From Escherichia phage vB_EcoS_MM-1, in sequence record PV577657: a stretch of 64,000 nucleotides of DNA. One strand, 5' to 3'. The notes below the pieces were generated by a model. That model was given only the letters and a program-made list of their open reading frames with translations, had not been told where the DNA came from and made no database searches. Positions 28,761 through 38,803 of the stretch are shown in pieces. Position 1 is the stretch's first letter; every line of letters begins with the position of its first letter. The translations under genes were made by a program, and so were the position numbers.

Positions 28761-29126
28761 AATTGAAAACTCGCAGGGTTAGCGAAACCTTCCTCAATTA
28801 GCATGTTCTAGAATACTAATCAAGTTATCTCCTATTGCACGCAGCTCAAGACGAGTACGAATTTTCAATTGTGGCGGCTCTCAGAAACTCTTCTACTCTA
28901 GTCTTAGCAGCTTACTCCCGAACGCATGTCGGGGAAGTCTTACTAAGCGCATCAAATAGCACCGTTACACTTTGAGCCATTGGTGTATCAAGAAGCAGAA
29001 GGACTTGAACCTTCACGAGATAGACCATTTATCTCAGCCGCTTTATGAGGTATGTTGCAGGGAGTGGATGTTCCCTATAAACCTTTTAGGCAGCCCCGTC
29101 TACCGATTCCGGCATACTTCAGGATT

Positions 29127-29597: not shown

Positions 29598-29810
29598 AAA
29601 TTATTTAGTTTACTAAGGCTATTAGCTCGGCGTAACTACAGCACCTTCGCTTCGAGCGGAAGGAACCGCGTCATCTCGCAAACCCGATACACTATTCAGT
29701 TGCCACTGAATCTAGTGGACTAATCTAGAACTTCTCCCGAATCGTAGGGATCGTGCTTTTTGGCAGCCAGTCCTAGGTCGAACTAATACCTTAGTGAACT
29801 ATGATGAGGA

Positions 29811-30150: not shown

Positions 30151-30228
30151 TGGAAGCGGGTGCAGGAATCGAACCTACCTCTTTCTAGCTTATGAGACTA
30201 GCGATCTCTACCAGAGATCTAACCCGCA
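30151..30228 (-). tRNA. tRNA-Met/Ile2-type (CAU)
   Basis: anticodon loop CUCAUAA; position 1-72 reads as U-U mismatch. Confidence 0.5.
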
Positions 30229-30234
30229 ATTGTT

Positions 30235-30310
30235 TGGTCAGTGCGGCAGGACTCGAACCTGCGACCCGAAGCATCCAAGGCTCCCACGCTACCAACTGCG
30301 CTACGCACTG
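30235..30310 (-). tRNA. tRNA-Pro (UGG)
   Basis: C1-G72, anticodon loop CUUGGAU, discriminator A. Confidence 0.65.
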
Positions 30311-30319
30311 TTAATTCTT

Positions 30320-30517
30320 TTATTGTGGAGGAATATTAATAATTCGTCCGTCTACACAATAAACGGTACTAGGAATTGTACTATATATGTAGAAATTCTT
30401 TATATTACTCTCTCCGCCACAGAAATTTTTAGCAAATTCATACTCTTTATTAATGGTTGAGTCAAGTTTAAAACAACCAGTAAGTAGGAATACAGACAGC
30501 AGTAAAACTTTTTTCAT
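30320..30517 (-). CDS. small lipoprotein
   Basis: 65 aa; signal peptide with lipobox LLTGC. Confidence 0.45.
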   Translation of the reverse strand: MKKVLLLSVFLLTGCFKLDSTINKEYEFAKNFCGGESNIKNFYIYSTIPSTVYCVDGRIINIPPQ

Positions 30518-30727
30518 TTTGCTTTCCTTCTCAACACTTTATAAGGTATATTATACAGAGAATTAAGCATAATAGCAAATGAATTTTTAATAAATTTACT
30601 TATTGTGTAGGCCACCTGGAGGCTACCAACCCCACGGCTGACAAAGAAGTTTGCGAGACCTCTCTTAAGTGCCAGAATAGACCCGCCGATCTATCGGAAC
30701 CTACATAATAAGTAAACTTTATAGTGT

Positions 30728-30848
30728 CATTCTAGACAGGACTCGAACCTGTTATCACTTGTGCGGACTTACGAGAACCATTCTTTCACTCGAATCGAAC
30801 GAGCTTCTGCCCTCGCCAAGCTGGTTTCCCCATCAACCACGCTAGAAT
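30728..30848 (-). ncRNA. 121-nt tRNA-like element
   Basis: perfect 7-bp terminal helix (attctag / ctagaat), canonical T-arm and a D-arm-like stem, about 45 nt of extra internal sequence. Confidence 0.3.
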
Positions 30849-30970
30849 GTTTGATTGTTTTCAGTGCAAGAGTCCGAGTCTTGGACACGACCGCTTCGCA
30901 AGTACATAGGCAGCTTATCATGAGTCAGCACTTCCGAATTGCTAGCTCCGTGTTCTGCACTGAAATTTTA

Positions 30971-31318
30971 TTAGTTTAACCGTAAAGTATTATCTACTTC
31001 ACCATTAATTGTTCGGCATTCTTCTGGGATTGCTGGTGTAGCCTTATATTCCCACCATTCAGAACCGTCGTATTCACCACGTTCTAACCAAGTTCCATCA
31101 GTAAACCACACGTTACCATAAAGCAATTGCCCACCGAAACCAGAATCATATTTAAAGTCTAGATTATTTAGAAAATCTTCAATATCTTTTTCTGTATAAC
31201 CTACGGGTAACACCCAAACTTCTTTGTCCCCATAATAACCGAATTCTATCTTAATACACTTAACTTCAGAATTAATATTCTTTAAGGCAAGTAACAATTC
31301 TTCTTTAGCATTAATCAT
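30971..31318 (-). CDS. hypothetical protein
   Basis: 115 aa. Confidence 0.5.
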   Translation of the reverse strand: MINAKEELLLALKNINSEVKCIKIEFGYYGDKEVWVLPVGYTEKDIEDFLNNLDFKYDSGFGGQLLYGNVWFTDGTWLERGEYDGSEWWEYKATPAIPEECRTINGEVDNTLRLN

Positions 31319-31344
31319 AGCATATTTCTCGTACTAGTTTAATT

Positions 31345-31421
31345 TGGCGCGACCGATGGGATTTGAACCCACATTCCCTCCCGTGACAGAGGAGTACCAT
31401 TACCAAGCCAGCCCCGGTCGC
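31345..31421 (-). tRNA. tRNA-Asp (GUC)
   Basis: anticodon loop CUGUCAC, discriminator G. Confidence 0.65.
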
Positions 31422-31430
31422 ATAATTCAT

Positions 31431-31616
31431 TTACTCAGCTTTGAGTTTTTCAATAGCTGCATTAAGTTCTTTAAGAAACTTTTTTCGTACATTAAGACGG
31501 TTGAGACTTACTAGTATATCATGTTTAAGTTCTTCGATGTATTTCTTCTCAACTTCAATATTGTTGATAGTGCTATCACGATGAACTTCTAGCTGTGCAA
31601 TTACATTCTTGGACAT
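31431..31616 (-). CDS. small coiled-coil protein
   Basis: 61 aa. Confidence 0.35.
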   Translation of the reverse strand: MSKNVIAQLEVHRDSTINNIEVEKKYIEELKHDILVSLNRLNVRKKFLKELNAAIEKLKAE

Positions 31617-31718
31617 GCTTGTTTCCTCAGTTATTAATGAAAATGGTATCTGTGACTGAATTCGATGTCAGCAATGATAGCTGGTTGGCTACCGGTTTAC
31701 TTAACTCTACACAGAATT

Positions 31719-34186: not shown

Positions 34187-34264
34187 TGGTGGCTCCCCGA
34201 GGATTCGAACCTACGTACCTTCCGGTTATGAGCCGGGTGCTCATACCATATGAGCTTGAGAACC
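34187..34264 (-). tRNA. tRNA-Met (CAU)
   Basis: anticodon loop CUCAUAA with G-C-rich anticodon stem, D-stem GCTC/GAGC, discriminator A. Confidence 0.55.
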
Positions 34265-37969: not shown

Positions 37970-38803
37970 TTTAAGTATTTTTAAGAACTCTCGTAAAAAC
38001 TCTTAAAAATACAGACGATACCGGGAGAGTCATAAGTCTCACTCATTAAGTATTTCAAGACAAAATACAGTAACGTCTATTATTTTCCAGTTTAAGTCAG
38101 GGTGACTTAGTGGTTATGTCCTGCGGTATATTGAGGACTCGGTTAGGCTTGGGGTCATGACTTCCCACCTTTTGCTGCTACTCAACAGGAGTTATCGCGA
38201 ATTACCTGTGCTATTGTGCACCATTAGTGACATCTCTCATGTCAGCATTTCCCACTTTGTGGATAGCTTGAAAAACTACTCCGATATGGAGAAAGAACTT
38301 CACTATCCTAGAATACCTTCTAAAGTTCTTCTTTAGCCTGGACATAGTTAAATCGTAATAAAACTATTCAGCAGACTGGTTGGTTAGTCTGGAACCAACT
38401 ACCGCGTGGTTTAGGCAGTGCGCAACTAACCTCGGAAGCTTTTATGTTAAAAGCATCAGTTATCCAGTTCTTACCGACCGTAGGATTCGAACCTACATCT
38501 TCCACCAGTTACGGCTTGATAATACCAATTATACTAGGACGGCAGTGTTACTACATAAGTGATTTCCACACCCCACTATTTATAAATCAGAGAAGAGTTT
38601 AGGGGAGAGGTTTCAGACGCCTCATTTTACACGTTCTAGCCACTAACCGGGATTGCCGCCCCCTGTGTACTAGTTTTACAACTAACCCACCGACTCTATT
38701 CAATGCGCTCCGGTTGGGATTCTGCACTCAGCGTAATCGGCTCGCTGTTCCCTAATTTATGAATATATTATACAGAATTTATAAGCATTTAGCAAATGAA
38801 TTT

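What the first reader, a model, noticed from the sequence alone, without database searches (positions are those of the whole stretch)
30600..30970. Two non-canonical structured RNA candidates inside the tRNA cluster
Region 30728-30848 has perfectly complementary 7-nt termini, a canonical T-arm and a D-arm-like stem, but is about 121 nt long with an extra internal hairpin carrying a second T-loop-like sequence. Region 30861-30965 is bracketed by a perfect 8-bp terminal helix (tcagtgca / tgcactga). Neither fits a standard tRNA and neither contains a credible ORF. They may be stable small RNAs, processed tRNA-like molecules or degenerate tRNA pairs.
Basis: seen in the sequence. Interest (0 to 1): 0.55.

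Follow-up and report, generated by a model that had tools for sequence, protein, structure and literature searches.

The report
Phage T5 stable RNAs, one unannotated
This stretch of a T5-like phage genome holds three small structured non-coding RNAs on the minus strand: two are already annotated in phage T5 (RNA2 and RNA IV, function unknown), and the third is an unannotated module of about 105 bases that is as conserved as a real tRNA.

Summary
The window is a T5-like phage: 100% identical to T5_ev212 and 97% to T5 over this stretch. Genes and tRNAs lie on the minus strand.

**Candidate 1 (30728-30848)** is real and already known. It is T5 rna2, annotated "tRNA-like stable RNA with unknown functions" (window 30725-30849). 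Comparative analysis shows one tRNA cloverleaf, not a tRNA pair. A 48-base insertion fills the anticodon loop and carries its own T-loop hairpin. 24 of 36 pairs show compensatory changes. Relatives occur across T5-like phages and in two ~167-kb Acinetobacter phages.

**Candidate 2** (helix 30861-30868 / 30956-30963) is in the sequence, but the helix alone is not beyond chance. The window has 124 such 8-bp inverted repeats, and the fold z-score is -0.5. What makes it credible:
- It is a discrete module, always 11 bases upstream of RNA2, and its homology boundary sits at the helix.
- It has no conserved ORF.
- It is 99.3% conserved, like tRNAs; the adjacent ORF is 91.6%.

It is annotated as an RNA in none of the records inspected or sampled, matches no Rfam family and shows no covariation.

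Likely mechanism (inferred): all three are cut from the polycistronic tRNA transcript and stabilised by their closing helices. Their functions are unknown.

The parts
30859..30964 (-). Unannotated conserved module ('candidate 2'), about 103-106 bases. Terminal helix 30861-30868 / 30956-30963, extendable to about 10 bp. A 3' hairpin GUCC-AAGACUC-GGAC abuts the helix.
   Evidence: - The covariance model R1 hits 30859-30964 at 131.7 bits, with no second copy anywhere.
- 219 phage records carry it, all >=90% identical and 154 of them >=99%.
- It is always 11 bases upstream of RNA2.
- Homology starts at the helix, after an AAAU spacer that follows an ORF stop, a tRNA-Lys CCA or a tRNA-like CCA end.
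- Mean identity is 99.3%, against 91.6% for the adjacent ORF.
- RNAalifold gives 35 pairs with 0 compensatory changes.
- It is not annotated in T5, BF23 or phage 5.
30850..30860 (-). 11-base A-rich spacer AAACAAUCAAA between candidate 2 and RNA2. It is the 5' leader of RNA2.
   Evidence: The spacer has the same length in all 27 loci that carry both elements.
30725..30849 (-).
   Evidence: - 96.8% identical to T5 rna2 (T5s06), annotated 'tRNA-like stable RNA with unknown functions'.
- The cloverleaf is supported by covariation.
- Model R2 scores it at 149 bits.
30768..30815 (-). 48-base insertion in the anticodon loop of RNA2. It contains the internal T-loop hairpin (30788-30804). Its 5' GGGC pairs with the GUCC that contains the would-be U33-C34-C35.
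   Evidence: - ARAGORN with introns allowed and a relaxed threshold calls tRNA-Arg(CCG) with a 48-base intron between positions 33 and 34.
- RNAalifold predicts the helix GGGC/GUCC, with a C-G to U-A double change in Epseptimavirus sequences.
- The insertion is 83% identical to that of Acinetobacter phage AB1I1M-1, while the scaffold is only 40% identical.
30604..30706 (-). Homologue of T5 RNA IV, a four-way-junction RNA with a conserved GGCG tetraloop and a 7-base CUCGCAA loop.
   Evidence: - 97.1% identical to T5 rnaIV (T5s05), annotated 'stable RNA with unknown functions'.
- Fold z-score is -2.1.
- 15 of 41 consensus pairs have compensatory changes.
- Epseptimavirus and DU_PP_V versions fold into the same overall shape.
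30707..30717 (-). 5' flank GUUUACUUAUU of RNA IV. It pairs with the 3' flank AUAAGUAA (30596-30603) and so extends the terminal stem of RNA IV to about 20 bp.
   Evidence: The flanking 9-bp helix is nearly invariant in the 12 aligned sequences and is present in all 33 variants collected.
30550..30578 (-). Sigma-70 type promoter TTGCTA-17-TATAAT, corresponding to T5 promoter P13a. It starts the next transcription unit downstream of RNA IV.
   Evidence: The promoter scan scores it 10 of 12 matches and finds no terminator-like site in 30200-31700. T5 annotates P13a at the corresponding position.

Best explanation
Window 30600-30970 is a run of three co-transcribed, non-coding, structured RNA modules on the minus strand of a T5-like phage's tRNA cluster. 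In 5' to 3' order they are an unannotated module of about 105 bases (30964-30859), T5 RNA2 (30849-30725) and T5 RNA IV (30706-30604).

**Shown**
- The identity of RNA2 and RNA IV with the annotated T5 stable RNAs.
- RNA2 is a single tRNA cloverleaf (acceptor, D, anticodon stem and T arm all covary). Its anticodon loop is filled by a 48-base domain with its own T-loop hairpin, and the would-be anticodon bases pair with that domain, so it cannot decode.
- RNA IV is a covariation-supported four-way junction.
- The third module is a discrete, single-copy, non-coding unit conserved as strongly as the neighbouring tRNAs.

**Inferred**
- All three are read through from upstream early promoters as part of the polycistronic tRNA transcript.
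- Host tRNA-processing nucleases release them. RNase P would cut at the tRNA-like 5' end of RNA2. RNase E would cut in the A/U-rich AAAU spacers. An RNase III-type cut would fall in the ~20-bp stem that flanks RNA IV.
- The products persist because closing helices protect their ends.
- The most likely role of RNA2 is as a non-decoding tRNA mimic that occupies a tRNA-binding factor, either a host tRNA-targeting nuclease or a processing or modification enzyme.
- The unannotated module is most likely a further stable RNA of the same kind. Its function is unknown.
For: - **Identity and annotation:**
- **RNA2 structure:** the RNAalifold cloverleaf has 19 of 25 pairs with double changes. On 27 distinct sequences, 95.2% of cells pair and 24 of 36 pairs have double changes, against 8.4 +/- 2.0 in shuffles. 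Ordinary tRNAs match the whole RNA2 model at 15-34 bits, which shows the scaffold is tRNA-like.
- **Anticodon occupied:**
- **RNA IV:**
- **Third module:**
  - 219 records, all >=90% identical.
  - Fixed 11-base spacing to RNA2.
  - Boundary at the helix in three different upstream contexts.
  - Mean identity 99.3%, against tRNA-Pro 99.7, tRNA-fMet 99.6, RNA2 98.8, tRNA-Asp 97.3, RNA IV 96.8, ORF067 91.6 and the P13a region 91.4.
  - The terminal helix and the 3' hairpin stem are invariant, and variable sites have a lower pairing probability (0.47 against 0.64, permutation p = 0.04).
  - ORFs are not conserved.
  - All annotated T5 stable RNAs share the end-closing helix architecture.
- **One transcription unit:** no terminator-like site between 30200 and 31700, and the only strong promoter lies downstream of RNA IV.
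Against: - No expression data were available, so nothing shows that the third module accumulates as a discrete RNA. The T5, BF23 and phage 5 annotators, who listed eight stable RNAs, left this 121-base gap blank.
- Its fold is not better than shuffled sequence (z = -0.54).
- There are no compensatory changes.
- Three substitutions break one predicted inner hairpin.
- All copies are >=90% identical, so structure cannot be tested by covariation.
- The nuclease assignments and the decoy role are inference from sequence and from general knowledge of E. coli tRNA processing.
- Large parts of the T5 tRNA region can be deleted without loss of viability, as cited in PMC11464382. Any function is therefore conditional.
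Confidence: 0.6

Rival explanations
1. The unannotated module is not an RNA in its own right. It is a cis-acting part of the RNA2 precursor: a structured 5' leader that guides or insulates processing, or a 3' stabiliser of whatever lies upstream.
For: - It is never seen without RNA2 and always sits exactly 11 bases upstream.
- The T5 annotators recorded no stable RNA here.
- A closing helix next to an A-rich linker is what a processing insulator would look like.
Against: - RNA2 occurs without it in more than half of the records: about 479 records match the region but only 219 carry the module. RNA2 therefore does not need it.
- It follows three different upstream elements, so it is not a 3' UTR of one gene.
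- Conservation of about 100 bases at 99.3% is more than a simple hairpin insulator needs.
Confidence: 0.22
2. The conservation of the unannotated module reflects a DNA-level role, or recent spread by recombination or homing in the mosaic tRNA region (for example a homing-endonuclease target or co-converted tract), not an RNA function.
For: - The region is mosaic and rich in HNH endonuclease genes.
- The module is present or absent among close relatives.
- In Epseptimavirus it is more similar to T5 (94-98%) than the flanking RNA2 is (~90%), as expected after a recent transfer.
Against: - The boundaries coincide exactly with an RNA-type closing helix and with the AAAU spacer used between tRNAs.
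- It lies on a transcribed strand between known stable RNAs.
- Substitutions avoid the helix and the hairpin stem.
- No other copy exists in the window or in the related loci searched with the model, and there is no match in E. coli genomes or plasmids.
Confidence: 0.1
3. RNA2 is an intron-containing tRNA-Arg(CCG) gene. The 48-base insertion is removed to give a decoding tRNA, and the insertion is a small mobile intron.
For:
- The insertion and the scaffold have discordant similarity. The insertion is 83% identical between T5 and the Acinetobacter phage where the scaffold is 40%. T5 and DU_PP_V share 87% of the scaffold but only 58% of the insertion.
Against: - The insertion is too short for a group I intron, and no intron or ribozyme family matches even at E <= 10.
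- It sits at position 32/33, not at the 37/38 site of protein-spliced introns.
- The spliced loop would be aberrant: G32 and C37 in T5, U37 in AB1I1M-1, A33 in W16.
- The 'anticodon' differs between phages (CCG against CCA) and pairs with the insertion.
- T5 annotates the full 125-base form as the stable RNA.
- The ARAGORN intron mode is noisy and calls the DU_PP_V homologue tRNA-SeC instead.
Confidence: 0.06
4. The two candidates are decaying tRNA genes or fused tRNA pairs with no function.
For: Both lie in a tRNA array. RNA2 has two T-loop hairpins. At very low thresholds ARAGORN splits it into two overlapping weak tRNAs.
Against: - Both elements are conserved at or above the level of true tRNAs.
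- RNA2 keeps all four cloverleaf helices through compensatory changes across subfamilies.
- The split reading needs a 5' strand / AGAAUG pairing that is not conserved.
- Candidate 2 has no D arm, anticodon arm or T-loop.
Confidence: 0.02

Closest known systems
Phage T5 RNA2 (gene rna2, locus tag T5s06 in NC_005859; also annotated in BF23 AJ604530 and phage 5 AJ604531)
   Same: Candidate 1 is this RNA. It is 96.8% identical, has the same 125-base extent and the same position between the T5.067 homologue and RNA IV.
   Different: Nothing in kind. This work adds three things:
- a covariation-supported cloverleaf;
- the reading of the extra hairpin as part of a 48-base insertion in the anticodon loop;
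- relatives in DU_PP_V-like, Sugarland-like and two Acinetobacter phages.
The other annotated T5 stable RNAs (RNA I, RNA III, RNA IV, RNA 2H, RNA1, RNA3, RNA X)
   Same: Candidate 2 shares their setting (minus strand of the tRNA cluster), their size (about 100 bases) and their architecture of a helix closing the two ends. RNA IV itself lies in the finding's span.
   Different: - Candidate 2 has no sequence similarity to any of them.
- No paralogue was found with its covariance model.
- It is not annotated as an RNA in the T5, BF23 and phage 5 records or in any of the 40 sampled records that carry it.
- It has no evidence of accumulation.
Phage T4 RNA C and RNA D (species 1 and 2 RNAs, T4s001 and T4s002)
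   Same: They are small stable RNAs encoded in a phage tRNA cluster, co-transcribed with the tRNAs, and of unknown function after decades (PMC3014915; PMC9697503).
   Different: There is no detectable homology. T4 rnaC scores only 18 bits (E = 0.04) against the RNA2 model, within the range of ordinary tRNAs, and rnaD does not match.
Canonical tRNA (Rfam RF00005)
   Same: RNA2 has acceptor, D, anticodon and T stems and a canonical T-loop. True tRNAs align end to end with its model.
   Different: - There is no free 7-base anticodon loop.
- It scores below every Rfam and ARAGORN default threshold.
- No CCA end is encoded in the T5-like copies.
- Candidate 2 shares only a closing helix with a tRNA.

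Membership tests
T5 RNA2 (tRNA-like stable RNA) | Sequence homology and synteny with the annotated rna2 of T5, BF23 and phage 5 | tested here: met
   Candidate 1 is 96.8% identical over 125 of 125 bases and has the same neighbours.
T5 RNA2 (tRNA-like stable RNA) | Accumulates as a stable RNA of about 125 bases in infected cells | not testable with these tools
   Only the GenBank note 'stable RNA' is available. The primary papers were not found in the library.
T5 RNA IV | Sequence homology and synteny with the annotated rnaIV | tested here: met
   97.1% identical over 103 of 103 bases at 30604-30706, immediately upstream of promoter P13a.
Canonical tRNA | Four-arm cloverleaf kept by compensatory changes | tested here: met
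   Met for RNA2. Not met for candidate 2, where no such arms are found.
Canonical tRNA | Free 7-base anticodon loop, and a score above the detector thresholds | tested here: not met
   RNA2 has 48 extra bases in the loop, and U33-C34-C35 pair with the insertion. Rfam finds no hit at gathering score or at E <= 10, and ARAGORN with default settings finds none.
Intron-containing tRNA gene (bacterial group I type or protein-spliced type) | Group I core of 200 bases or more, or an intron at 37/38 with a canonical loop after removal | tested here: not met
   The insertion is 48 bases long and sits at 32/33. No intron or ribozyme family matches. The loop after removal would have G32 and C37, with A33 in W16.
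T4 RNA C / RNA D | Sequence or structure homology | tested here: not met
   rnaC scores 18.1 bits (E = 0.037) against model R2 and rnaD gives no hit. MAFFT shows no convincing alignment.
tmRNA and Y-RNA-like tRNA mimics (YrlA) | Match to the family model | tested here: not met
   The ARAGORN tmRNA search and Rfam at E <= 10 find nothing in 30500-31050.
T5-type stable RNA module (for candidate 2) | Lies on the transcribed strand of the tRNA cluster; a discrete unit closed by a terminal helix; conserved like an RNA gene; non-coding | tested here: met
   with ORF decay shown.
T5-type stable RNA module (for candidate 2) | Secondary structure supported by covariation | tested here: inconclusive
   0 of 35 pairs show compensatory changes, because all copies are >=90% identical. 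There is only a weak depletion of variable sites from paired positions (p = 0.04).
T5-type stable RNA module (for candidate 2) | Detected as a discrete stable RNA | not testable with these tools
   No expression data were available. It is not annotated in T5, BF23 or phage 5.

The most novel reading that the evidence does not exclude
Two linked readings are not excluded.

1. The module at 30859-30964 is a previously unrecognised phage small RNA with a sequence-specific function. That would explain tRNA-grade conservation over about 100 bases in more than 200 genomes.
2. The 48-base domain in the anticodon loop of RNA2 is an exchangeable functional cassette. It is shared at 83% identity between T5-like phages and unrelated ~167-kb Acinetobacter phages whose scaffolds are only 30-40% identical. 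T5 and DU_PP_V share 87% of the scaffold but carry different cassettes. This fits a cassette that binds a conserved bacterial factor, such as a tRNA-targeting defence nuclease or part of the translation or tRNA-maturation machinery, presented on a tRNA-like scaffold.
Probability: 0.2. Interest if true: 0.65.

Novelty: new member of a known kind. Interest (0 to 1): 0.35.

Why it matters
T5 and T4 have carried stable RNAs of unknown function in their tRNA clusters for about forty years. T5 tRNAs have recently been shown to neutralise host defences that attack tRNAs: tRNA-Lys against PARIS and tRNA-Tyr against retron Eco7 (PMC11464382, PMC10644984).

The non-decoding tRNA mimic RNA2 is therefore an obvious candidate for a related role, and the results here give three concrete starting points:
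- a covariation-backed structure for RNA2;
- a list of RNA2 relatives in other phage groups;
- one extra, unannotated, highly conserved module to include in deletion and small-RNA experiments.

On its own the finding is mostly a rediscovery of annotated T5 features.

Tried and rejected
- **Default detectors find nothing.** ARAGORN, Rfam at gathering score and Rfam at E <= 10 give nothing in the region except a snoRNA chance hit.
- **Relaxed ARAGORN with introns is noisy.** It gives tRNA-Arg(CCG)+48 for T5 RNA2 but tRNA-SeC+33 for the DU_PP_V homologue, plus many spurious calls. I used it only as a lead, which covariation then tested.
- **The minimum-energy stems CGAG/CUCG and GCUUG/UAAGU in RNA2 are rejected.** G-to-U at the second base is common without compensation, and DU_PP_V cannot form the second stem.
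- **The alternative acceptor pairing CAUUCU/AGAAUG (the 'tRNA pair' reading) is rejected.** It is not conserved.
- **Candidate 2 has no relatives beyond its own near-identical copies.**
  - No similarity to the other T5 stable RNAs.
  - No paralogue or divergent copy found with covariance model R1.
  - No match in E. coli genomes or plasmids.
- **Inter-RNA duplex prediction gave no meaningful signal.** This covered candidate 2 against the other stable RNAs and a search for complementary 10-12-mers in the window.
- **Collection scans with the RNA2 core pattern added little.** Metagenomes yielded only further T5-like and Sugarland-like copies. Bacterial genomes yielded only chance matches.
- **No tRNA ancestor for RNA2.** The best-matching tRNAs are Lys, Asn, Gln and Met at about 30 bits.
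- **The primary T5 stable-RNA papers were not found** in the searchable library.
- **The inner structure of candidate 2 is unresolved.** The MFE and centroid folds disagree, and one MFE hairpin is broken by three substitutions.

Full report
**Where the window comes from.** The 451 bases around the finding are 100% identical to Escherichia phage T5_ev212 and 97.3% identical to phage T5. ARAGORN finds 19 tRNA genes, all on the minus strand, and Rfam also reports 19 minus-strand tRNA hits, two of which ARAGORN missed. The finding therefore has to be read on the minus strand.

**What is already annotated.**
- The T5 RefSeq record lists eight 'stable RNAs' in its tRNA region: RNA III, RNA I, RNA1, RNA 2H, RNA IV, RNA2, RNA3 and RNA X. 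All eight map in this window.
- By coordinate transfer, T5 rna2 ('tRNA-like stable RNA with unknown functions') is window 30725-30849.
- T5 rnaIV ('stable RNA with unknown functions') is window 30604-30706.
- BF23 and phage 5 carry the same annotations.
- The 121 bases between the stop codon of the T5.067 homologue (ORF 30971-31318) and rna2 are unannotated in all three records.

**Candidate 1 (RNA2): the observation.** All described features are present: the terminal helix, the T arm, the D stem and the internal hairpin with a T-loop sequence. Default ARAGORN and Rfam do not call it.

**Candidate 1: relatives.** I collected homologues from several groups:
- Tequintavirus and Epseptimavirus phages;
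- Pectobacterium phages DU_PP_V and My1;
- Klebsiella phage Sugarland and metagenomic relatives;
- two ~167-kb Acinetobacter phages, which are unclassified Caudoviricetes.

**Candidate 1: structure.**
- RNAalifold on nine diverse sequences returns a cloverleaf plus a helix that joins the 5' end of the extra sequence (GGGC) to GUCC in the anticodon-like loop.
- A covariance model with this structure finds every homologue at 76-149 bits. Ordinary tRNAs align to the whole model at 15-34 bits, and T4 rnaC scores only 18 bits.
- On the model alignment of 27 distinct sequences, 95.2% of cells pair. 24 of 36 pairs show changes on both sides, against 8.4 +/- 2.0 in shuffles and 2-9 when partners are slid by 1-3 columns. 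All pairs of the acceptor and D stems, four of five anticodon-stem pairs and three of five T-stem pairs covary. This alignment was fitted to the model, which favours the structure. The independent MAFFT/RNAalifold result agrees.
- ARAGORN with introns allowed reads the RNA as tRNA-Arg(CCG) with 48 extra bases between positions 33 and 34.
- RNA2 is therefore one tRNA-like cloverleaf whose anticodon loop is filled by a structured 48-base domain (30768-30815). It is not a pair of tRNAs.
- The would-be anticodon bases pair with that domain. The sequence differs between phages (CCG in T5-like, CCA in the Acinetobacter copies), and positions 32, 33 and 37 are non-canonical. The RNA should not decode, and splicing to a working tRNA is unlikely.

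**Candidate 1: an unexpected pattern.** The insertion and the scaffold have discordant similarity.

| Comparison with the window | Insertion identity | Scaffold identity |
|---|---|---|
| Acinetobacter phage AB1I1M-1 | 83% | 40% (30% without the T arm) |
| DU_PP_V | 58% | 87% |

BLAST independently aligns the insertion region between the Acinetobacter and T5-like copies. This points to exchange of the anticodon-arm cassette between scaffolds and to a sequence-specific function for the cassette.

**Candidate 2: the observation.**
- The 8-bp helix is at 30861-30868 / 30956-30963.
- The window has 124 perfect 8-bp inverted repeats with similar spacing, against 65-89 in shuffles.
- The fold z-score is -0.54.
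- The observation alone is therefore not beyond chance.

**Candidate 2: comparative evidence for a real element.**
- The element is present in 219 phage records, all >=90% identical and 154 of them >=99%.
- In every locus that has it, it lies exactly 11 bases upstream of RNA2.
- Homology begins at the helix, after an AAAU spacer. That spacer follows the ORF stop in T5-like phages, the CCA end of tRNA-Lys in L010, and the CCA end of a tRNA-like element in four Epseptimavirus loci. This is the junction type used between tRNAs in these arrays.
- Across the 27 loci that carry all three RNAs, its mean identity to the window is tRNA-grade:

| Element | Mean identity to the window |
|---|---|
| tRNA-Pro | 99.7% |
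| tRNA-fMet | 99.6% |
| Candidate 2 | 99.3% |
| RNA2 | 98.8% |
| tRNA-Asp | 97.3% |
| RNA IV | 96.8% |
| Adjacent ORF (T5.067 homologue) | 91.6% |
| P13a promoter region | 91.4% |

- The 18 variable alignment columns avoid the terminal helix and the 3' hairpin stem. Variable sites have a lower predicted pairing probability (0.47 against 0.64, permutation p = 0.04).
- The small ORFs lose their start or are frameshifted in variants.

**Candidate 2: evidence against, or missing.**
- RNAalifold finds 35 pairs but no compensatory change.
- Substitutions break one hairpin of the minimum-energy fold.
- There is no paralogue or divergent copy in the window or in the related loci searched with the model.
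- It has no similarity to the other T5 stable RNAs.
- It has no match in E. coli genomes or plasmids and no Rfam match.
- More than half of the phages that carry RNA2 lack it. They have a tRNA-Lys directly upstream of RNA2, or a different ~55-base hairpin element in the same slot.
- My conclusion is that it is a real, constrained, non-coding module, most likely one more stable RNA of the T5 type. Its fold and its accumulation as a discrete RNA remain unproven.

**RNA IV.** It folds significantly better than shuffles (z = -2.1). Epseptimavirus and DU_PP_V versions, which differ widely in sequence, keep the same four-way junction. 15 of 41 consensus pairs have compensatory changes. A nearly invariant 9-bp flanking helix (UUACUUAUU/AAUAAGUAA) extends its terminal stem to about 20 bp.

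**Mechanism.**
- No terminator-like site lies between 30200 and 31700, and the only strong promoter match (TTGCTA-17-TATAAT at 30578-30550, T5 P13a) is downstream of RNA IV. The three modules should therefore be read through from upstream promoters together with tRNA-Asp and the T5.067 homologue.
- From established knowledge of E. coli tRNA maturation, I infer three processing events. RNase P cuts at the tRNA-like 5' end of RNA2. RNase E cuts in the A/U-rich spacers. A double-strand-specific cut falls in the long stem around RNA IV. The closing helices would protect the ends from exonucleases. None of these steps was tested here.
- Function is unknown. For the analogous T4 RNAs C and D it is also still unknown (PMC3014915; PMC9697503).
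- T5 tRNAs counter host tRNA-targeting defences (PMC11464382; PMC10644984). On that basis, a decoy or sponge role for the non-decoding tRNA mimic RNA2 is the most attractive hypothesis, held at low confidence.
- T5 mutants with large deletions in the tRNA gene region are viable, as cited in PMC11464382. Any role is therefore conditional.

**Verdict.**
- Candidate 1 is a rediscovery of an annotated T5 RNA.
- The span also contains the annotated RNA IV.
- Candidate 2 is an unannotated but strongly conserved sibling module.
- The interpretation 'stable or processed tRNA-like RNAs' is broadly right, and 'degenerate tRNA pairs' is not.
- Interest is modest. The most novel points are the tRNA-grade conservation of the unannotated module and the cassette-like behaviour of the RNA2 insertion across unrelated phages.

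Noticed in passing
window 30604-30706 (-), flanks 30707-30717 and 30596-30603: The T5 RNA IV homologue lies inside the finding's span but was not described. It is a covariation-supported four-way junction with a conserved GGCG tetraloop and an anticodon-loop-like CUCGCAA loop. A nearly invariant flanking helix makes a stem of about 20 bp, suggestive of RNase III-type excision.
   Followed up: partly
window 28762-29116, 29617-29788, 31644-31716, 37970-38599 (all -): Homologues of the other annotated T5 stable RNAs (RNA III, RNA I, RNA1, RNA 2H, RNA3, RNA X) are all present in the window. None has a known function.
   Followed up: partly
window 34190-34264 (-) and 38472-38543 (-): Two Rfam tRNA hits that ARAGORN missed. 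The first is the homologue of T5 tRNA-Ile2(CAU). The second lies inside the RNA X region.
   Followed up: no
window 30320-30517 (-): A 65-aa ORF starting MKKVLLLSVFLLTGC (signal peptide with a lipobox-like motif) sits where T5 has T5.066. BLAST finds no match in the window for T5.066 or tRNA-Val. The short tRNA-His to tRNA-Leu interval, with no tRNA-Ser call, suggests that tRNA-Ser1, tRNA-Ser2 and hegC are missing too.
   Followed up: no
L004 514-600 and L024 (related loci, not in the window): A cloverleaf tRNA-like element with an encoded CCA end and an 11-base GUAACACGUAG loop in place of a T-loop. ARAGORN does not call it even at a relaxed threshold. In Epseptimavirus it sits directly upstream of candidate 2.
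   Followed up: partly
L006, L024, L035 (related loci), immediately upstream of RNA2: Phages that lack candidate 2 carry a different ~55-base hairpin element (ACAGAGTAAAGGCTACAGTAGGTGCACCC...ACTCTG) in the same slot.
   Followed up: no
L062 2510-2628 and L063 2492-2612 (Acinetobacter phages AB1I1M-1 and vB_AbaSt_W16): RNA2-like elements occur in ~167-kb Acinetobacter phages. Their insertion is 81-83% identical to that of T5, but their scaffold is about 40% identical. In W16 the next gene is annotated 'RF-1 domain peptide chain release factor'.
   Followed up: partly
L002 1793-1866 and L003 1802-1972 (BF23 and phage 5): The RNA2 to RNA IV junction is a hot spot for insertions. BF23 and many Epseptimavirus phages carry a tRNA-Gly(GCC) there, and phage 5 carries a small ORF.
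   Followed up: no
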